Below are positions 1,003-6,652 of a DNA stretch of 6,652 nt, in pieces. Numbering within the stretch: position 1 is the stretch's first letter; every line of letters starts with the position of its first letter. The stretch comes from a virus: positions 1 through 6,652 of the IMG/VR virus record IMGVR_UViG_3300005043_000004; one strand, written 5' to 3'. Below the pieces are notes generated by a model. That model worked only from the letters and a program-made list of their open reading frames with translations. It searched no databases and was not told the DNA's origin. The position numbers were made by a program, and so were the translations under genes.

Positions 1003-1003
1003 C

Positions 1004-1140
1004 GATACCCGGTAACGAAAACTCACCGGGACTAATCCGTTACCGGGTATCATAATATAAAATACGAATATCTGTATAGCCACTTGCGTTACCGGGTAAC
1101 TCAAAGTATTATTACTTTATTATATACCGGGTAACGCAAG
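1004..1140. promoter_or_regulatory. Array of four related 13-bp palindromes (consensus GTTACC-S-GGTAAC) organised as two inverted-repeat pairs between zot and the MatP-like gene
   Basis: Site A is 1004-1016 GATACCCGGTAAC. Site B is 1039-1051 GTTACCGGGTATC, the exact reverse complement of A. Site C is 1088-1100 GTTACCGGGTAAC, a perfect palindrome. Site D is 1123-1135 TATACCGGGTAAC. Arms 1004-1017 and 1038-1051 are a perfect 14-bp inverted repeat. Arms 1083-1098 and 1125-1140 are a 16-bp inverted repeat with only the central base mismatched. Centre-to-centre spacing is 35 bp in both pairs and 49 bp between pairs. Confidence 0.85.
1084..1112 (+). promoter_or_regulatory. Candidate sigma70 promoter of the MatP-like gene (TTGCGT, 17-nt spacer, TATTAT), with the perfect palindrome C inside the -35/spacer
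   Basis: The -35 is TTGCGT at 1084-1089, the spacer covers 1090-1106 (17 nt), and the -10 is TATTAT at 1107-1112. Palindrome C (1088-1100) overlaps it. SD AGGAG at 1139-1143 sits 10 nt before ATG 1154 and overlaps the outer end of palindrome-D arm 1125-1140. This is a hexamer match by eye only. Confidence 0.4.
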
Positions 1141-1153
1141 GAGCTATATTATT

Positions 1154-1588
1154 ATGCCGAAGAAAAAATATACAATTGTTAAGTCTGATTTGCTCTTTGC
1201 GAGGCGCTGGATAGATAATAAATTTAATGCGAAAGATTATAAATCATTTAGTGTTTATATGAGAAATCGACAATGCGTAGATTTTGCTTTACAAGAATAT
1301 CAAGAAGTTGATTTCAGAGCGACTACAAAGCTGAACGAATGGTGCGAAAAGTTTCTCACATCAAAAGATTGGTCAAAGTTAAAAACATCAATTAGGGCAG
1401 GTAGAAACCGTAAGGATAAAGGTAATAGAAAGTCTATAGATATAGACTTTGAAGCGTGGTGTAAGCTTTCTGCTATTTCTGATTCCGAAAGTTTGACTAT
1501 TTCTGAAATTATTAATAAGTATTTAAATAAACAGTATTTAGTAGCGCTTGAATCAGATGCTAAACTCCAAACTACTATATTTGATTAA
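1154..1588 (+). CDS. MatP-like DNA-binding protein (helical N-domain plus ribbon-helix-helix), an accessory gene of the phage
   Basis: 144-aa ORF with a good SD. Residues about 58-124 (KLNEWCEKFLTSKDWSKLKTSIRAGRNRKDKGNRKSIDIDFEAWCKLSAISDSESLTISEIINKYL) align by eye with remembered E. coli MatP ([70 protein letters not shown]). Shared motifs are K..IRA.R.R, RKSID.-F..W..L and T.SE.I. Length is similar (144 vs 150 aa). The coding call is firm. The family assignment needs an HMM or structure check. Confidence 0.6.
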   Translation: MPKKKYTIVKSDLLFARRWIDNKFNAKDYKSFSVYMRNRQCVDFALQEYQEVDFRATTKLNEWCEKFLTSKDWSKLKTSIRAGRNRKDKGNRKSIDIDFEAWCKLSAISDSESLTISEIINKYLNKQYLVALESDAKLQTTIFD

Positions 1589-2027
1589 AGCTTCAATTAA
1601 CGGAATACCGTTACAGTATAGTTACTATTTGCATAGCGAATACACCACACAATATCCAACCCTTTTTAAAAAACCGGCGGTGACGGTAGTAGAAATTAGG
1701 GTGCGGTTTGCTCTATAGTGAGCATTCGCATACTGCTGGAACGCAAAACAACCTTGAAATATTGCTCAGGTGTGGTTAAATTAAATCGCGGCGTTATTTG
1801 TTCAACCGGTCATTGTTGGTGACGTCGTTAACACAAGATTGAATTATAAACTGTTGGCGTATTGCAGAAACTATTTATGATTCGACGGTGGGAATATAAA
1901 GCCTCAAGAACTGCTGAAACAGCTCTTAAGACTTCCGATCAATGACCGCAACGCTTATGAAGGAAGCGCAGATATATGTATATTAGTATATATTATTCTC
2001 TGAGCTGGGCAAATACCCCGGTTCGTC
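1589..2027. other. Large non-coding intergenic region, the expected location of the plus-strand origin/nick site and minus-strand origin, plus the rep promoter
   Basis: 439 nt contain only trivial ORFs (22 aa or shorter). By eye the region looks somewhat more GC-rich than the coding parts. Elements seen: hairpin TAACGG-aata-CCGTTA (1598-1613), palindrome ATAGTTACTAT (1618-1628), a T5A6 tract (1663-1673), possible stem AAACCG 1671-1676 / CGGTTT 1704-1709, and an A/T block 1971-1997 (24 of 27 nt) just upstream of rep with several TATATT/TATTAT -10-like hexamers. The function is assigned by position only. Confidence 0.45.
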
Positions 2028-3335
2028 ATGCTTAAATCAATAAATTCTAACGATACTACTATCAATGTTGATGATGTTTTGTTCGAACAGCATGATTTTA
2101 AAACTGTTTTGTTTGATGGGCCTTTTTCATGGTTACCGCCGACACACCCTGCTTTATCAATATTTGATCCTCATAAATTTACTCATCATCGTACGAACAT
2201 CGACCGGCCAACGGTAGTAATACGTGGGCTAACTCCCAATAATGATCAAACCGTGAACAGCTTGGGAGGAATACTTGTTCGTTCTTCTTCTGGTTTTACT
2301 TTTCTTGATACCCCTTTACCGATGGAGTCGGCGCATGATGATTGTGCGATCATCGATACTTGTTCATTTGTTTTAAGAATTGACGATTACGTTAAGATAA
2401 TGCCTGAGTTGTTCGGTGATGAAGAAGTTCTTTCTTCTATTAGTAATGATTTATCGGGAATGGTTGGTGTAAAAATTGGCGATCAAATGGGTGCAAAAAA
2501 CTTCTATCATAATACTAGAAAGTTAATGTATACGAAAAACGAAAATGGCGAACAGCTAAATACAATGTTGGGCTTTATCGCGTGGGGCGGTAATAACTCT
2601 ACAATACAACTTTACTTTAATGCTGACGGTTGTGAATACATTCATTCACAAAAATCTGGCTGGAAAAAAATCAAGGCTTGGGGTGAATTTGTTCATGCTT
2701 CGCTTAGACGTGTTGATTTAGCTTATGATGATATTGACGGCTCAACGTATAGAGTACGACAAGTTAATCAAGATCGTTTGAATGGTTTATATAACAATGC
2801 TAATGGCGGTCGTATGCCGGGTTTTTCACAAGTCGGCGATTGGTTAAATGATGATGCTAATAACAACGGTCTTACTGCTTATGTCGGTTCTCGCTCTAGT
2901 GCTCGTTACTACCGAATTTACGAAAAAGGCAAACAACTCGGCGAGGAAAACTCTGCGTGGGTCCGGGTTGAATTAGAGTTAAAGGCTTCTAATTTTTATA
3001 TACCTTGGGATACATTGATAGAACCGGGTAAGTATCTTGCAGGCTCCTGTAAAGCTTTAGAATTCATTTCAGATAAGCGTATATCATTAATAAACATTCA
3101 AAAGAAAAAAGCACAGATCAGCTTAGACTCGATGATAATGCATTGCAAAAGACAATATGGAAAACTTATAAATGCATTAACAGAAATAGGTAGAAGTGCT
3201 GAAGATATAGTTAACGATATTAAACGAGATGGTATACCAAGAACTTTAGAATTTCCGATAAACGGAAAAATGCCAGATGAGAAAATATCTAGGTATGAGT
3301 TCGAAAATCCGGATTGGTTATCCTATGCATCTTGA
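2028..3335 (+). CDS. Rolling-circle replication initiation protein, Rep_trans / phage-CRI family (RstA- or pII-equivalent)
   Basis: 435-aa ORF. Motifs typical of this family as I know it are RRVDLAYDD, ARYYRIYEKGKQLG (R-I-Y-D/E-K with the catalytic-Tyr context) and WVRVELELKA. It sits next to the large intergenic region as in other inoviruses. ATG 2028 is the first in-frame ATG after stop 2001-2003. No obvious SD is present. Confidence 0.85.
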   Translation: MLKSINSNDTTINVDDVLFEQHDFKTVLFDGPFSWLPPTHPALSIFDPHKFTHHRTNIDRPTVVIRGLTPNNDQTVNSLGGILVRSSSGFTFLDTPLPMESAHDDCAIIDTCSFVLRIDDYVKIMPELFGDEEVLSSISNDLSGMVGVKIGDQMGAKNFYHNTRKLMYTKNENGEQLNTMLGFIAWGGNNSTIQLYFNADGCEYIHSQKSGWKKIKAWGEFVHASLRRVDLAYDDIDGSTYRVRQVNQDRLNGLYNNANGGRMPGFSQVGDWLNDDANNNGLTAYVGSRSSARYYRIYEKGKQLGEENSAWVRVELELKASNFYIPWDTLIEPGKYLAGSCKALEFISDKRISLINIQKKKAQISLDSMIMHCKRQYGKLINALTEIGRSAEDIVNDIKRDGIPRTLEFPINGKMPDEKISRYEFENPDWLSYAS

Positions 3336-3397
3336 TTGAGTACTAATAGCATTTGCAAGCGAGCGTAGCGACCTGCATTGCTATTAGTACTCAATCA
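3333..3397. repeat. Long inverted repeat/hairpin with a 19-bp perfect stem plus a 4-bp extension. Candidate bidirectional terminator, packaging signal or ssDNA origin structure.
   Basis: 3333-3351 TGATTGAGTACTAATAGCA is the exact reverse complement of 3379-3397. After a small internal loop, TGCA 3354-3357 pairs with TGCA 3374-3377. The loop is 3358-3373 agcgagcgtagcgacc. The stem begins on the rep stop codon (TGA 3333-3335) and lies between the convergent rep and the 51-aa minus-strand ORF. A T8 run (3413-3420) lies 16 nt downstream. Confidence 0.8.
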
Positions 3398-3407
3398 TTA
3401 AATTAGT

Positions 3408-3563
3408 TTAGCTTTTTTTTATATCCTCTTTGAATTCTCTAGTTTTAATTATATGTATAATTTCACTAGCGTTGATTCCAAGGGATTTACCTAATATTTC
3501 AAGTTTTTCTATTTCTAATTCCAATGTTGTTTTACAACTATCCTTTTTAATAGCATCTATCAT
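3408..3563 (-). CDS. Small ribbon-helix-helix (CopG/Arc-like) protein, 51 aa, not in the supplied ORF track
   Basis: Hand translation of the minus strand gives MIDAIKKDSCKTTLELEIEKLEILGKSLGINASEIIHIIKTREFKEDIKKS*. On the mRNA GGAG lies 9 nt upstream of the ATG (..ACGGAGUAUGGCUAAAUG), and an in-frame stop lies immediately upstream. The pattern of strand (TTLELE), helix (KLEILGKSLG), G-x-x-S and helix (SEIIHIIK) matches RHH proteins such as CopG. Confidence 0.55.
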   Translation of the reverse strand: MIDAIKKDSCKTTLELEIEKLEILGKSLGINASEIIHIIKTREFKEDIKKS

Positions 3564-3674: not shown

Positions 3675-3884
3675 TTAGTCGACATCTAAACCATATTTCT
3701 TTACCAACCGTTCGACCTCCTTTTCTAAGTATTCATTTATAACAAGTGATACAGGTACTATTTTCGCTTGTTCATTCGTTCTCTTTATCGCGATTTTTTC
3801 CCACTTGTCATAGGTAGACTGTTTTATGCGGATAGTTGCCATTTTTGCGTTTTCCGTTCCTTTGATATTAAAAACTTTATTCAT
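3675..3884 (-). CDS. Small ribbon-helix-helix type transcriptional regulator (repressor candidate), transcribed divergently from the structural operon
   Basis: 69-aa ORF from the track. MATIRIKQSTYDKWEKIAIKR....VSLVINEYLEKEVERL fits a strand-helix-helix pattern. The start could instead be the second Met (55 aa), and neither start has a strong SD. Position and orientation mirror repressor genes of other inoviruses (rstR-like placement). Confidence 0.6.
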   Translation of the reverse strand: MNKVFNIKGTENAKMATIRIKQSTYDKWEKIAIKRTNEQAKIVPVSLVINEYLEKEVERLVKKYGLDVD

Positions 3885-3923
3885 TATTGCATTTAACCTT
3901 TAACTATGATAGGTGTGACTCAT

Positions 3924-3955
3924 AACGTTGTTACGTGTAACAATGTTGCTATAAT
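3924..3955 (+). promoter_or_regulatory. Structural-operon promoter candidate (TTGTTA, 16-nt spacer, TATAAT) embedded in a 24-bp near-perfect palindromic operator
   Basis: The palindrome is 3924-3947, AACGTTGTTAC-GT-GTAACAATGTT, with 10 of 11 arm positions complementary and a perfect core TTGTTAC-GT-GTAACAA. The -35 is TTGTTA at 3928-3933, the spacer covers 3934-3949, and the -10 is a consensus TATAAT at 3950-3955. SD GAGGA 3994-3998 and ATG 4006 lie downstream. Confidence 0.55.
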
Positions 3956-4005: not shown

Positions 4006-4296
4006 ATGAGAATTTCAATGTTTGGTACTTTGCTCGGTGCTAAAAGAGTTGATTATGAAACCTGGCAGCATGTGAATTTATACGTTGCTGTTTCAGTAAA
4101 AAATGGTGACGGCAAGCAATCTCAAAAATATCAATTTAAAGAAGGTTTTCACGATTATGAAAAGTGTAAGACTTTAATTGGTCAGACAATAGAAATTGAG
4201 GGTGATATGGAAACTAATGATAAAGGTGAACAGACCGTTAGTGTTGTTTCTATAAAAGCTCTCACTGGAAGCGTGAAAAAATTGGCTAACGCATAA
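4006..4296 (+). CDS. Probable ssDNA-binding protein (gene V equivalent)
   Basis: 96-aa ORF with a strong SD (GAGGA, 7-nt spacing). It is the first gene of the structural operon, immediately before the coat genes, with the size typical of inovirus pV/ssb. The assignment rests on position and size, and I recognise no motif. Confidence 0.55.
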   Translation: MRISMFGTLLGAKRVDYETWQHVNLYVAVSVKNGDGKQSQKYQFKEGFHDYEKCKTLIGQTIEIEGDMETNDKGEQTVSVVSIKALTGSVKKLANA

Positions 4297-4526
4297 TGCC
4301 TTTGATTATGCTATGCGATGGAGTTGTTTCAGAAAACCTTGATTCATCTCCAATCTGTTCGTCAAGTTGGACTGTTACAGATTATGTAATTGTTCAACCT
4401 TTCGATATTGCTTCTCTCGACCCATTGGTGTTGGCAGAGGCTTTCGGTGCTGGCTGGATTATTATAGCCTCTTATTGGTCTGTGACTTTCGGTTATCACA
4501 TAATTCTGGAACTTTTAAAAAGGTAA
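4296..4526 (+). CDS. Small membrane protein of unknown function (possible minor virion or assembly protein)
   Basis: 76-aa ORF. Its start is translationally coupled to the preceding gene (TAATG at 4294-4298). It has an acidic N-terminal part, one C-terminal hydrophobic segment (LAEAFGAGWIIIASYWSVTFGYHIILELL) and a basic end (KR), a coat-protein-like architecture. Confidence 0.55.
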   Translation: MPLIMLCDGVVSENLDSSPICSSSWTVTDYVIVQPFDIASLDPLVLAEAFGAGWIIIASYWSVTFGYHIILELLKR

Positions 4527-4531
4527 TTAGC

Positions 4532-4669
4532 ATGAGTTATGAAACACTTGTAACAGCTGTAAATTTTGTAAATGTAGAAACTGCAATTTTAGGCGTATCA
4601 GTAGCGCTTGCGGGATTATATATTAGTACACGGGGTGCACGAATAGTGCTTGGATTCATGAAACGATAA
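4532..4669 (+). CDS. Major coat protein (gene VIII equivalent), 45 aa, without a cleavable signal peptide
   Basis: MSYETLVTAVNFVNVETAILGVSVALAGLYISTRGARIVLGFMKR. It has an acidic N-terminus (E4, E16), a hydrophobic core and four basic C-terminal residues, the canonical inovirus coat layout. AGG lies 8 nt upstream of ATG 4532. The track ORF 4367-4669 is the same frame extended upstream through the overlapping 76-aa gene. Confidence 0.8.
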   Translation: MSYETLVTAVNFVNVETAILGVSVALAGLYISTRGARIVLGFMKR

Positions 4670-4716: not shown

Positions 4717-4791
4717 ATGGCTGATATATATTATTTTACATTTTTCGTAATAGGCATAATATGCGCTCAATTAACCTTTTCACGATTCTGA
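4717..4791 (+). CDS. Possible 24-aa hydrophobic mini-protein (pVII/pIX-sized) overlapping the start of the pIII-like gene
   Basis: Hand translation gives [24 protein letters not shown]. It is hydrophobic and of minor-coat size, lying between the coat and adsorption genes. No SD is present and it is very short, so it could be fortuitous. Confidence 0.2.
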   Translation: MADIYYFTFFVIGIICAQLTFSRF

Positions 4792-6137
4792 TTCTATTTT
4801 TCAATTCTTATTCTTTTTCAACAACTGAATATAAAGCTACAGCTACGTATGGCGGAGAGCAACATGATACCGGTTGGATTTGTACAAGTTCAGAACATGC
4901 TTGTAATACATTATTTAGATTGTGGGTGCCGCAACAATATAAAGACCAATATCGATCTAAAGGAGTATATCAAGATACAACTAATTGTTCATATCAAGAC
5001 GCGGCATCTATAAATTCTGATGGAGAGGTTAATTGGAATTATACGTCGTTAAGAGGGGTTTTTGAAACCAGGTCTAGTCCTTCTTGTGATTTTGATAATA
5101 CTGAGGAAGACGAGTGTCCTCATCCTTATTATAAATACGATGACAGTGATGGGATTGAAGTATGTACTAGCCCGTGTGAGTATTTTAGGTTTCAAAACCC
5201 AAACGAAACTCATCTTACTGCTTTCTATCCGGATTCCTTTCTTTCTGATTACGGAGAAACAGAACCTGTCATGTATGTTTGCGACTATCTTATTGACGGT
5301 GTTGCATGTGAATTTGTAAGAGATTTATTTACACATATAGATAGCCCTGAACCTGGTTTTCTCACAGATTACAATCTTACAGGAAATGAGTGCCAGGTTG
5401 GTGAATGGGGTGATGATAATCCCGGCGCTAATCCTGACCCTGAAAGTACAGGCGGATGCACAGTTGTTTGTTTTGGAAATTGCGAGGATATATGTGCAGA
5501 AGTAGACGGGGACGGTGTTTTAGATGACTTCGATGGTTTGAGTGATCCCGATCATGAATCGGTACAAGATGATCCAGAAATTCCAATAATTTGTTATTAC
5601 ATACCGACGGCTCCCGGATGTCCGGGAACTAGTACAGATCCGAACGGAGATACGGGTGATGGAAGTGGAGAGGGTGATGGTTCAGGTGATGGGTCGGGTG
5701 ATGGAAGTGGAGAGGGTGATGGTTCAGGTGATAGTGGATCTGGAACTGGAACTGGAACTGGATCAGGTGATGCTGGAACTGGTGATACTGGAACTGGAAC
5801 TGGATCAGGTGACGGAGGCGGAACGGATATCGGAGATCTTGATTTCGGTAACGCACCTTTTATCTCGCCAGGTATTTATTCGGGCACGAGTATTACAGAA
5901 ACGAATGGATTGTTTTTTGATAGGCTTTCACAAAGTCCTGTCTTTTTAATGTCTACTGCGGCTAGTGTTGCGTGGCCCAGCGGTGGCACATGTCCAACTT
6001 TTGAAATGAATGTTTTTGGTTCTTCAGTTTCTAGTGACATTCATTGCAAGGTTAATAATTCAGTATCTAGTGTTTTAGCTAGTGTAATGACAGCCGTTTG
6101 GGTTTTGTTGGGTATTACTATTATATTGAGAGCTTAG
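4761..6137 (+). CDS. pIII-like minor coat / host-adsorption protein
   Basis: 458 aa. It has an N-terminal signal peptide ([20 protein letters not shown]), a Cys-rich acidic N-terminal part (16 Cys before the linker) and a Gly/Ser/Thr/Asp linker ([56 protein letters not shown]). The conserved-type C-terminal domain ends in a membrane anchor ([17 protein letters not shown]). This is the classical gene III architecture and position. Confidence 0.85.
5653..5812 (+). repeat. In-frame tandem repeats with a 42-bp period (and GGAACT hexamer repeats) encoding the pIII linker
   Basis: 38 nt at 5653-5690 are identical to 5695-5732 (offset 42 nt, 14 aa [14 protein letters not shown]). 23 nt ggaactggaactggatcaggtga at 5748-5770 are identical to 5790-5812 (offset 42). 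GGAACT occurs three times in tandem at 5742-5759. Confidence 0.9.
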
Positions 6138-6140
6138 ATT

Positions 6141-6652
<512 letters not shown>

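What the first reader, a model, noticed from the sequence alone, without database searches (positions are those of the whole stretch)
1004..1140. Four matS-architecture palindromes in two 35-bp-spaced inverted pairs upstream of the MatP-like gene
Sites A (1004-1016), B (1039-1051), C (1088-1100, perfect) and D (1123-1135) share the core TACC-S-GGTA within a 13-bp dyad, GTTACC-N-GGTAAC. The MatP target matS is also a 13-bp dyad, GTGACRNYGTCAC. The outer GT.AC/GT.AC frame is retained, while the symmetric positions 3/11 (G to T, C to A) and 6/8 differ, which looks like a specificity switch. A and B are exact reverse complements with 14-bp arms. C and D sit in a 16-bp inverted repeat with one central mismatch. 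Both pairs have 35-bp centre spacing. C overlaps the -35/spacer of a promoter candidate, and the D arm reaches the SD, so autoregulation is plausible. In the packaged + strand, A:B and C:D can fold into hairpins whose stems rebuild the duplex sites, so the elements would persist in ssDNA. That makes a packaging-signal or minus-origin role an alternative. In read-through mRNA from zot the C:D stem would cover AAG of the SD, whereas a transcript from the internal promoter would leave it free.
Basis: partly seen in the sequence, partly recalled or inferred. Interest (0 to 1): 0.8.

Follow-up and report, generated by a model that had tools for sequence, protein, structure and literature searches.

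The report
Phage MatP-like repressor's matS-type operator array
A small filamentous phage carries a diverged copy of the bacterial chromosome-organising protein MatP, and the four palindromes in front of that gene are most likely its own matS-type binding sites for self-regulation, a gene-plus-sites arrangement also seen in other phages and in front of the bacterial matP gene itself.

Summary
TACCSGGTA occurs four times in the 6.55-kb circular inovirus genome, all within 1004-1135 (0.03 expected). The centres are 35/49/35 bp apart, the A:B arms are exact and C is a perfect 13-bp dyad.

The gene at 1154-1588 is a true but distant MatP homologue. It passes the Pfam MatP_C cut-off, hhalign gives 98.5% probability, and the AlphaFold model matches only MatP structures. 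It scores far below the NCBIfam orthologue cut-off.

The sites fit GTTAC-N3-GTAAC, the matS variant reported for Photorhabdus MatP.

Comparative evidence favours protein operators over ssDNA hairpins:
- An 89%-identical relative keeps all four sites while the spacers diverge, and the changes are not compensatory.
- A relative without the gene has no sites.
- Of 11 mobile-element homologues examined, ten (25-45% identical) have 1-4 GTNAC-N3-GTNAC dyads upstream; the eleventh has only 27 nt of upstream sequence and a swapped-half match.
- Seven of these have a pair near -55 and -25 from the start codon.
- 77 of 80 enterobacterial matP genes have such a dyad at -25.

Best reading: an autoregulatory operator array. 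Binding is untested, and what the phage gains from the protein is unknown. It is a new variant of a known kind.

The parts
1004..1016 (.). Site A, GATACCCGGTAAC. It has one mismatch to GTNAC-N3-GTNAC and is centred 144 nt before the ATG. It begins 2 nt after the zot stop codon (1000-1002).
   Evidence: The sequence is identical in L001.
1039..1051 (.). Site B, GTTACCGGGTATC. It is the exact reverse complement of A and is centred at -109.
   Evidence: In L001 it reads GTTACCCGGTAAC; the two changes are not compensated in A.
1088..1100 (.). Site C, GTTACCGGGTAAC, a perfect 13-bp dyad centred at -60. It overlaps the candidate -35 and the spacer.
   Evidence: In L001 it reads ATTACCGGGTAAC. Homologues have a site at -49 to -62.
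1123..1135 (.). Site D, TATACCGGGTAAC, centred at -25. It lies between the candidate -10 and the Shine-Dalgarno sequence.
   Evidence: In L001 it is the perfect GTTACCGGGTAAC. Homologues have a proximal site at -8 to -27, and E. coli matP has one centred at -19.
1084..1112 (+). Candidate sigma-70 promoter of the MatP-like gene: -35 TTGCGT (1084-1089), a 17-nt spacer, and -10 TATTAT (1107-1112).
   Evidence: Read from the sequence. It matches 8 of 12 consensus positions, so it falls below the threshold of the scan and is not listed there. L001 has TTGCAT, 17 nt, TACTAT at the same place. This is inferred, not shown.
1138..1143 (+). Shine-Dalgarno sequence AAGGAG, ending 10 nt before the ATG at 1154.
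   Evidence: Sequence. L001 has AAGGG.
1154..1588 (+). Gene for a 144-aa MatP-family protein: a helical N-terminal bundle, a ribbon-helix-helix domain and a short C-terminal helix.
   Evidence: Pfam MatP_C 30.8 bits against a cut-off of 24. PDB MatP 7nyw, E 1.9e-6. AlphaFold pLDDT 88, and all seven Foldseek hits at probability 1.00 are MatP chains. hhalign 98.5%.

Best explanation
The four palindromes are operator sites of matS type for the phage's own MatP-family ribbon-helix-helix protein, encoded directly downstream at 1154-1588.

By homology with the solved MatP-matS complexes, one protein dimer should sit on each roughly 15-bp dyad, CGTTACC-S-GGTAACG. Helix alpha-4 and strand beta-1 would insert into the major groove.

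Sites C (-60) and D (-25) bracket the -10 element of the gene's promoter, so a filled array would block RNA polymerase. That gives negative autoregulation.

Sites A and B (-144 and -109) would extend the complex to four dimers over about 130 bp. They could add cooperativity and perhaps block transcription reading through from zot, which has no terminator.

The unit made of sites, MatP-like gene, intergenic region and Rep_trans gene behaves as one exchangeable module of the phage. The protein may therefore also set the expression level of the replication module, in the way CopG does for RepB in rolling-circle plasmids.

What is shown: the sites exist and are non-random, the protein is a MatP homologue, sites and gene co-occur, and the arrangement is conserved across the family.

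What is inferred: binding, the promoter position, and repression. The benefit of the protein to the phage is unknown.
For: 1. The sites are non-random and confined to this region: 4 observed against 0.03 expected.

2. The protein is a MatP homologue. Pfam MatP_C is above its cut-off. phmmer against the PDB finds MatP 7nyw, 4d8j and 3vea. Profile-profile comparison gives 98.5% probability, E 4e-15, over MatP residues 48-128, which include alpha-4 and beta-1. The AlphaFold model (pLDDT 88) matches MatP structures and nothing else with probability 1.00. K77, R81, R84 and R86 in the alpha-4 equivalent are nearly invariant in the family.

3. The site type is an experimentally used matS variant. GTTACNNNGTAAC was found for P. 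thracensis MatP, taken to EMSA, and used in the cryo-EM complex (PMC8669397).

4. Phylogenetic footprint against L001, whose protein is 89% identical: 47 of 52 site positions and 35 of 36 core positions are identical, against 62 of 99 in the rest of the intergenic region and 7 of 22 in the A-B spacer. Fisher p = 2e-4. The spacing is 35/48/35 bp.

5. Co-occurrence. L117 shares the structural genes (zot 75%, pVI 91%, pIII 80% identity) but has no MatP-like ORF and no such sites.

6. Family pattern. Ten of the 11 homologues examined, at 25-45% identity and several of them in inovirus genomes or prophages, have 1-4 GTNAC-N3-GTNAC dyads within 200 nt upstream. The background is 0.09 per 200 nt. The proximal site is centred at -8 to -27 and the next one at -49 to -62. 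Four-site arrays with nearly the same layout occur in P0005 and P0006.

7. Chromosomal matP has a GTNAC-N3-GTNAC dyad starting exactly 25 nt before the ATG in 77 of 80 Enterobacteriaceae.
Against: There is no binding, footprinting or expression data.

The promoter is only a moderate consensus match, 8 of 12, and the automatic scan did not report it.

In some homologues no clear -10 lies between the two proximal sites, for example P0009.

The 35-bp spacing is about 3.3 helical turns, which puts neighbouring dimers on different faces of the helix. The spacing also varies in the family, from 28 to 44 bp between adjacent sites, so the geometry of any cooperativity is unclear.

Sites A and B have no promoter of their own, so autoregulation alone does not explain them.

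The more distant plasmid homologues on IncC plasmids have 12-bp arms with an N2 centre, and one (Oceanisphaera pA) shows no dyad at all.
Confidence: 0.7

Rival explanations
1. The array is mainly a cis-acting matS-like 'handle' on the double-stranded replicative form rather than a transcriptional operator. Bound by the phage MatP-like protein, or by host MatP, it would position or tether the small circle (for example at mid-cell), bridge copies, or unload SMC complexes such as MukBEF from the replicon. Autoregulation would then be a by-product.
For: The sites fit a matS variant identified for P. thracensis MatP and used in its cryo-EM complex. Four sites are more than simple autorepression needs, and A and B have no promoter of their own. 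Homologues sit on other small or mobile replicons: inoviruses and 747 plasmids, mostly IncC and conjugative. One lies next to parAB. Here the cassette travels with the replication module.
Against: All sites in every member examined lie within about 150 bp of the gene's own start codon, with the proximal one next to the SD. That is the signature of a local regulator. The homology does not cover MatP's C-terminal tetramerisation and ZapB-binding tail or the region around H38-D42 that contacts MukE. Many family members end right after the RHH domain. The host and its matS sequence are unknown.
Confidence: 0.15
2. The palindromes act as hairpins in the packaged single-stranded plus strand, A:B and C:D. 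They would serve as the packaging signal or as the minus-strand origin, as the intergenic hairpins do in Ff phages.
For: The plus-strand DNA from 995-1155 folds into the two hairpins at -35.7 kcal/mol, z = -8.2. The A:B hairpin lies directly after the last morphogenesis gene, the position of the Ff packaging signal (established knowledge of Ff phages).
Against: In L001 the best fold pairs B with C and A with D instead, so the topology is not conserved. The differences between the two phages are not compensatory; they keep each site's own dyad symmetry. The same kind of site stands in front of chromosomal matP and of plasmid or prophage homologues, and chromosomal matP never exists as single-stranded phage DNA. 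The relative L117 lacks the sites altogether yet has the same structural genes. A better structural candidate exists: a long perfect hairpin after rep at 3333-3397. L001 keeps it as a structure at 4543-4608 with an unrelated sequence.
Confidence: 0.07
3. The sites belong to another regulator and only happen to lie upstream of the MatP-like gene. Candidates are the 69-aa RHH-like protein encoded on the minus strand at 3675-3884, or a host factor.
For: A palindrome with the same GTTAC half-sites but an N2 centre, TTGTTACGTGTAACAA at 3928-3943, lies in the divergent promoter region next to the 69-aa gene.
Against: L117 keeps the 69-aa protein at 72% identity but has no TACCSGGTA sites. Site arrays track the MatP-like gene across unrelated genomic contexts.
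Confidence: 0.05

Closest known systems
MatP-matS (macrodomain Ter protein of Enterobacterales and Vibrionales; PDB 4D8J, 3VEA/3VEB, 7NYW)
   Same: The DNA-binding core is homologous: alpha-3, alpha-4, beta-1 and the RHH helices. The predicted overall fold is the same. The site is a 13-bp dyad of the form GTNAC-N3-GTNAC. The exact GTTAC...GTAAC frame was identified for P. thracensis MatP and used in its complex, and it also lies upstream of E. coli matP.
   Different: The protein is not an orthologue: 43 bits against the 165-bit NCBIfam equivalog cut-off. There is no detectable homology to MatP's C-terminal coiled-coil tail. The gene is carried by a 6.5-kb phage. All sites are clustered within 132 bp at the gene's own promoter; from my own knowledge of Mercier et al. 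2008, which I did not re-check here, E. coli has about 23 matS sites spread over roughly 800 kb. The site centre is C-S-G where matS has R-N-Y.
Ribbon-helix-helix autorepressors with arrayed operators (CopG of pMV158, Arc and Mnt of P22, omega of pSM19035, ParG of TP228)
   Same: A small RHH protein is encoded directly downstream of several short symmetric sites that overlap its promoter. In this phage, as with copG-repB, the RHH gene lies upstream of a rolling-circle Rep gene, and the two move together as one module. ParG is the only non-MatP structure with appreciable Foldseek probability (0.75), over the RHH part only.
   Different: This protein has an extra N-terminal helical bundle that, in MatP, takes part in DNA recognition. 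Its site is a 13-15-bp dyad of matS type rather than short heptad or pseudo-symmetric repeats. A 440-bp intergenic region, probably holding the origin, separates it from rep, so co-transcription is unproven.
The matS-like dyad at -25 of chromosomal matP genes
   Same: A GTNAC-N3-GTNAC dyad sits between a -10-like element and the SD of the gene that encodes the cognate protein, the same place as phage site D. Positions 3 and 11 vary T/G and A/C among genera.
   Different: There is a single site rather than an array of four. I found no paper in the searchable library that describes it or describes matP autoregulation, so whether it is 'known' is uncertain.

Membership tests
MatP protein family (Pfam PF17414 MatP_C plus PF06303 MatP; NCBIfam NF003471) | A ribbon-helix-helix domain homologous to MatP_C | tested here: met
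   PF17414: 30.8 bits against a cut-off of 24, E 3.8e-7, residues 92-125. hhalign of the family profile against MatP orthologues: 98.5% probability, E 4e-15.
MatP protein family (Pfam PF17414 MatP_C plus PF06303 MatP; NCBIfam NF003471) | An N-terminal four-helix bundle whose alpha-4 helix contacts DNA | tested here: inconclusive
   PF06303 scores 16.3 bits, below its 27-bit cut-off. The alpha-3/alpha-4 part aligns with MatP 48-80. The AlphaFold model (pLDDT 88) has helices at 10-25, 39-51, 57-67 and 70-88, and Foldseek aligns 137-158 columns to MatP chains at TM 0.5-0.6. This is a predicted structure, and residues 1-47 show no sequence homology.
MatP protein family (Pfam PF17414 MatP_C plus PF06303 MatP; NCBIfam NF003471) | Orthology to chromosomal MatP (the equivalog score) | tested here: not met
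   NF003471: 43.3 bits against a cut-off of 165. Identity to MatP structures is 18-22%.
MatP protein family (Pfam PF17414 MatP_C plus PF06303 MatP; NCBIfam NF003471) | The C-terminal coiled coil used for tetramerisation and ZapB binding | tested here: not met
   The hhalign alignment ends at MatP residue 128 and query residue 129. Only 19 residues follow the RHH domain. They are predicted helical but with falling confidence. Many family members lack any tail.
matS sites | A 13-bp dyad of the form GTGACRNYGTCAC, or the GTTACNNNGTAAC variant | tested here: met
   C fits GTNAC-N3-GTNAC perfectly. A and B have one mismatch and D has two. The GTTAC...GTAAC frame matches the P. thracensis site. The centre is CSG rather than RNY.
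matS sites | Binding by a MatP-family dimer | not testable with these tools
   This needs EMSA or footprinting. The only support is comparative: co-occurrence and co-variation of sites with the gene.
matS sites | Many sites dispersed across a replication-terminus macrodomain | tested here: not met
   All four sites lie within 132 bp. None lies elsewhere in the 6.55-kb genome, apart from one unconserved near match in zot.
RHH autorepressor operators | Repeated symmetric sites overlapping the promoter of the RHH gene itself | tested here: inconclusive
   The sites are immediately upstream. C and D bracket a candidate -35/-10 that is conserved in L001, and the -55/-25 pair recurs in seven family members. 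The promoter is only predicted, and no transcription data exist.
Ff-type packaging-signal or minus-origin hairpins | A hairpin structure conserved among relatives through compensatory change | tested here: not met
   The MFE topology differs between the window and L001. The substitutions are non-compensatory. The sites are absent from relative L117. No Rfam family matches the window.

The most novel reading that the evidence does not exclude
MatP-like genes with their own matS-type arrays may form a portable module of small circular replicons: inovirus replicative forms, IncC conjugative plasmids and other plasmids. The module would exploit the host machinery that reads MatP-matS. It could unload MukBEF-type SMC complexes from the element, conceivably including SMC-based plasmid-restriction systems. 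It could also tether the element at mid-cell near the terminus and the division septum. Seen the other way round, chromosomal MatP would descend from such autoregulated mobile-element RHH proteins and still carry the ancestral operator at -25.
Probability: 0.12. Interest if true: 0.85.

Novelty: new variant of a known kind. Interest (0 to 1): 0.55.

Why it matters
In the papers I could search, MatP appears only as a chromosomal organiser of the terminus region in enterobacteria and vibrios.

This work shows that a diverse family of MatP-like proteins rides on mobile elements. The search found 163 clusters at 50% identity. Members occur in filamentous phages, and tblastn found similar ORFs on 747 plasmids. 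Eleven of the 14 mobile-element members examined carry matS-type dyads at their own promoter, and ten of those show the standard dyad form. I found no paper on such homologues.

That gives three things:
- A ready-made set of natural protein and site pairs (GTTACC-S-GGTAAC, GCTACAATGTAGC, GTCACAATGTCAC and others) for dissecting how the MatP fold reads DNA.
- A testable hypothesis that matP itself is autoregulated through the conserved dyad at -25.
- An evolutionary link between an ordinary mobile-element repressor and a chromosome-organisation factor.

If the phage protein also touches host matS sites or MukBEF, it would be a new way for a phage to interfere with chromosome organisation. Nothing here shows that.

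Tried and rejected
- Whole-window DNA searches against GenBank phages, in near and distant modes, found nothing. tblastn of the protein against the phage collection also found nothing.
- Alignment-based locus searches failed because no stretch was conserved enough. I used exact-protein look-ups instead.
- The exact two-site pattern TACCSGGTA-N24-28-TACCSGGTA in IMG/VR gave 14 loci. Thirteen have no MatP-like ORF, which is about the number expected by chance.
- A protein scan of metagenome contigs gave no relative.
- The three-site DNA pattern in metagenomes gave 23 loci. Twenty-two are GGTACC-type tandem repeats. The remaining one, L128, is a non-coding TTACCSGGTAA repeat region. None has a MatP-like ORF.
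- XerCD/dif-like attP: no match to a dif pattern with up to 3 mismatches.
- tRNA and Rfam scans found nothing.
- Intrinsic terminator after zot: none was found.
- SD occlusion in read-through mRNA: the C:D stem forms in both phages simply because the sites are palindromes. The extension over the SD seen in the window is not kept in L001.
- Host identification was not achieved.
- I could not retrieve Dupaigne et al. 2012, so I did not compare base-contacting residues one by one.
- Searches for papers on matP autoregulation found nothing relevant.

Full report
**What the window is**

The window is a complete circular filamentous-phage (inovirus) genome of 6553 bp. The sequence starts again at position 6554. 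G+C is 37%.

The genes on the plus strand are:
- zot/pI, running from 6428 across the junction to 1002 (Pfam Zot)
- a 144-aa ORF at 1154-1588
- a 440-bp intergenic region
- a Rep_trans rolling-circle initiator at 2028-3335
- a putative ssDNA-binding protein at 4006-4296
- a small ORF at 4296-4526
- a 45-aa coat protein at 4532-4669
- a pIII-like protein at 4761-6137
- a pVI-like protein (DUF2523) at 6141-6428

Two small ORFs lie on the minus strand, at 3408-3563 and 3675-3884. No GenBank phage resembles the genome at the DNA level.

**Checking the observation**

- A, 1004-1016, GATACCCGGTAAC
- B, 1039-1051, GTTACCGGGTATC
- C, 1088-1100, GTTACCGGGTAAC
- D, 1123-1135, TATACCGGGTAAC

The core TACCSGGTA occurs four times in the window and nowhere else. 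Shuffles give 0.03 matches, and none of 200 reached four.

The A:B arms are 14 nt and perfectly complementary. The C:D inverted repeat extends to 24 nt at 88%. The centre spacings are 35, 49 and 35 bp.

The conserved half-site is really (G)CGTTACC, so each dyad is about 15 bp.

**The neighbouring protein is a true but distant MatP homologue**

- Pfam MatP_C scores above its curated cut-off (30.8 against 24 bits). The N-terminal MatP model scores below its cut-off.
- phmmer against PDB sequences finds MatP and, at E below 0.1, nothing else. The best hit is the Photorhabdus thracensis protein of 7nyw (E 1.9e-6). The alignment runs through alpha-3, alpha-4, beta-1 and the RHH helices.
- A profile of 46 family members aligns with enterobacterial MatP at 98.5% probability, E 4e-15, over MatP residues 48-128.
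- An AlphaFold model built on that alignment has mean pLDDT 88. In the PDB it matches the MatP chains of 7nyw, 4d8j, 3vea and 3veb with probability 1.00, at TM 0.5-0.6 over 137-158 aligned columns. The next hits have E-values above 2.
- It is not an orthologue. The NCBIfam MatP equivalog gives 43 bits against a cut-off of 165.
- The homology stops before MatP's C-terminal coiled coil.

**The site type is a known matS variant**

Bürmann et al. [quoted passage not shown] They took it to EMSA and used it in the cryo-EM complex.

The phage dyad GTTACC-S-GGTAAC fits that pattern exactly. Only the C-S-G centre, where matS has R-N-Y, is special to this phage.

**Relatives of the phage**

L001 (IMGVR_UViG_3300029805_000015) encodes an 89%-identical protein and has all four sites, with centre spacings of 35/48/35 bp.
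- Within the 13-mers, 47 of 52 positions are identical, and within the 9-nt cores 35 of 36.
- In the rest of the intergenic region 62 of 99 are identical, and in the A-B spacer only 7 of 22. Fisher p = 2e-4.
- The changes inside sites do not preserve A:B or C:D pairing. B goes from GTATC to GTAAC and changes its centre, C from G to A at position 1, and D from TA to GT. Each change keeps or improves the site's own dyad symmetry.

L117 (IMGVR_UViG_3300004833_000029) shares the structural module: zot 75%, pVI 91%, pIII 80%, coat 80% identity. It has a different rep gene, no MatP-like ORF and no TACCSGGTA or GTNAC-N3-GTNAC site after zot.

The comparison also shows mosaicism. The block of sites, MatP-like gene, intergenic region and Rep_trans is shared with L001 (rep 85%). 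The structural genes are closer to L117. L001's own zot is only 54% identical.

**The wider family**

An exhaustive HMMER search found 163 clusters (at 50% identity) of mostly 120-150-aa proteins with E up to 1e-3.

Exact-sequence look-ups place several of them in inoviruses. P0004 sits in a prophage with Zot, DUF2523, Coat_B and Phage_CRI genes, and also in what looks like the free circular form. P0005 sits next to Phage_CRI and an HTH repressor-like gene.

I scanned the 200 nt upstream of 11 mobile-element homologues (25-45% identity to the query) for GTNAC-N3-GTNAC with at most one mismatch. All 11 gave at least one hit, 27 hits in all, and further two-mismatch dyads are present. The one hit for P0045, where only 27 nt of upstream sequence is held, has its half-sites in swapped order, so I do not count it as a clear case. 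The background in the same loci is 0.09 hits per 200 nt.

The sequences differ from member to member but keep the frame:
- GTTACCCTGTCAC plus an inverted copy (P0003)
- GTTACATGGTAGC, GCTACATGGTAGC and GTCACAAGGTAGC (P0004)
- GTTACATGGTAAC, GTTACATTGTCAC, GTTACAAGGTATC and GTCACAATGTCAC (P0005)
- GCTACAATGTAGC, GTTTCATTGTAAC, GCTACATCGTAAC and GCTACAATGTCAC (P0006)
- GTTACAGGGTAAC, twice (P0009)
- GTTACAAGGTAAC, twice (P0013)
- GTTACTGAGTAAC (P0007)

The positions are stereotyped. The proximal site is centred 8-27 nt before the ATG, and the next one 49-62 nt before it.

Four-site arrays occur at:
- -144, -109, -60 and -25 in the window
- -130, -89, -53 and -24 in P0005
- -130, -97, -62 and -27 in P0006

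So the C-D pair, and in this subfamily the whole four-site layout, is a conserved architecture. The exact spacing is not: adjacent sites are 28 to 44 bp apart.

Weaker homologues of about 124 aa are annotated as hypothetical proteins on 747 PLSDB plasmids, mostly conjugative IncC plasmids. They have an inverted pair GTTACATGTCAC-N11/12-GTGACATGTAAC upstream.

**Chromosomal matP**

E. coli K-12 has GTTACACGGTAAC starting 25 nt before the matP start codon.

Among 80 Enterobacteriaceae matP loci, 77 have a GTNAC-N3-GTNAC dyad at exactly that offset:
- GTTACACGGTCAC, 39 loci
- GTTACACGGTAAC, 19
- GTTACGTGGTAAC, 7
- GTGACACGGTAAC, 5
- three other variants, 7

The dyad lies downstream of a conserved CTGATATTCTG element that looks like an extended -10.

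This is the same place as phage site D, between the -10 and the SD. I found no paper in the library describing it.

**Mechanism proposed**

By homology with the MatP-matS structures, alpha-4 and beta-1 insert into the major groove (quoting Dupaigne 2012). One dimer should occupy each dyad.

A candidate promoter is kept in L001 as TTGCAT, 17 nt, TACTAT. In the window it reads -35 TTGCGT at 1084-1089, a 17-nt spacer, and -10 TATTAT at 1107-1112. This places C over the -35 and spacer, and D just downstream of the likely start site, abutting the SD AAGGAG at 1138-1143. Occupancy would repress the gene.

A and B begin 2 nt after the zot stop codon, and no intrinsic terminator follows zot. They may add cooperative binding or act as a roadblock to read-through transcription. 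This part is the least certain.

Because the cassette travels with the Rep_trans gene, a copy-control role like that of CopG for RepB is a reasonable extension. It is unproven.

**Rivals**

*Hairpins in the packaged strand.* The plus strand folds well in the window, at -35.7 kcal/mol with z = -8.2. But any two of four palindromes can pair. L001's best fold pairs B with C and A with D, and the substitutions are not compensatory. The same sites occur in chromosomal, plasmid and prophage contexts. L117 has none.

A more convincing structural element is the long perfect hairpin after rep at 3333-3397. L001 retains it as a structure at 4543-4608, although the sequence is unrelated.

*SD occlusion in read-through RNA.* It is weak and not conserved.

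*A dif-like attP.* It is excluded at the sensitivity I tested.

*A cis-acting matS 'handle' for host machinery.* This remains possible. The purely promoter-proximal location of every site in the family argues against it, as does the lack of homology to MatP's partner-binding regions.

**Verdict**

The thing is an operator array of matS type for a phage-borne MatP-family RHH protein.

It is a new variant of a known kind: an ordinary autoregulated RHH cassette built from the MatP fold and matS-type sites, on mobile elements rather than in a terminus macrodomain.

Interest is moderate. The mechanism is probably mundane. The link between MatP-matS and a widespread, undescribed mobile-element family is worth follow-up, and so is the conserved dyad in front of matP itself.

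Noticed in passing
L032 1461-1473 (E. coli K-12 NC_000913.3, 25 nt upstream of matP); L036-L115, position -25: Chromosomal matP genes carry a conserved matS-like dyad, GTNAC-N3-GTNAC, starting exactly 25 nt before the start codon in 77 of 80 Enterobacteriaceae. It follows a conserved element that looks like an extended -10. This suggests that MatP regulates its own gene. I found no paper describing it.
   Followed up: partly
L033 2869-3243, L034 2998-3372 (IncC plasmids pEC12-1b and pVPS129); L035 3001-3390 (Oceanisphaera plasmid pA): MatP-like ORFs of about 124-129 aa, annotated as hypothetical, occur on 747 PLSDB plasmids, mostly conjugative IncC plasmids of Klebsiella, Salmonella, Escherichia and Vibrio. 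The IncC copies have an inverted pair GTTACATGTCAC-N11/12-GTGACATGTAAC just upstream. The Oceanisphaera copy lies directly after parAB and shows no such dyad.
   Followed up: partly
window 3333-3397; L001 4543-4608: A long perfect hairpin (19-nt arms in the window, 22-nt arms in L001) lies between the convergent rep gene and a small minus-strand ORF. The structure is kept in the relative but the sequence is unrelated. It is a candidate bidirectional terminator, packaging signal or minus-strand origin.
   Followed up: partly
window 3922-3949: The palindrome TTGTTACGTGTAACAA (GTTAC-N2-GTAAC) lies in the divergent promoter region, just upstream of TGCTATAAT, which precedes the ssb-like gene at 4006. 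It is next to the 69-aa RHH-like minus-strand gene. Its half-sites are the same as in sites A-D but the spacing is one base shorter. Only the right half (GTAACAATGTTGC) is kept in L001, and L117 has GTGACAATGTTGC.
   Followed up: no
window 1003-3335 compared with L001 and L117: The genome is a modular mosaic. The block of sites, MatP-like gene, intergenic region and Rep_trans is shared with L001 (rep 85%, MatP-like protein 89% identity). The structural genes are closer to L117 (zot 75% against 54% in L001). L117 has an unrelated rep gene and other small ORFs in place of the cassette.
   Followed up: yes
window 1960-2027; L001 about 3170-3230; L116 about 500-570: The block CAGATATATGTATATTAGTATATATTATT is conserved directly upstream of the Rep_trans start codon in three phages. 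It may be the rep promoter or part of the plus-strand origin. It does not match a dif site.
   Followed up: no
window 5640-5830: The pIII-like gene contains a Gly/Asp/Ser/Thr-rich repeat linker ([15 protein letters not shown]... and TGTGTGSGD...), as is typical of inovirus receptor-binding proteins. The match to L001 is broken into separate segments around this region.
   Followed up: no
L128 1558-2640 (metagenome contig JACLAC010019053.1): Two clusters of about 11 TTACCSGGTAA-type palindromes lie in a stretch with no convincing ORF and no MatP-like gene. Their nature is unknown. They look unrelated to the phage.
   Followed up: partly
L020 6380-6420, L021 164-204, L023 2577-2617: The element GCGGCCCCGGCGGGCCT(T/A)CGCAACGCAGATTCTA is conserved upstream of the site arrays in two different inoviruses, those encoding P0004 and P0005. 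It is a GC-rich hairpin followed by a conserved tail. Its function is unknown.
   Followed up: no
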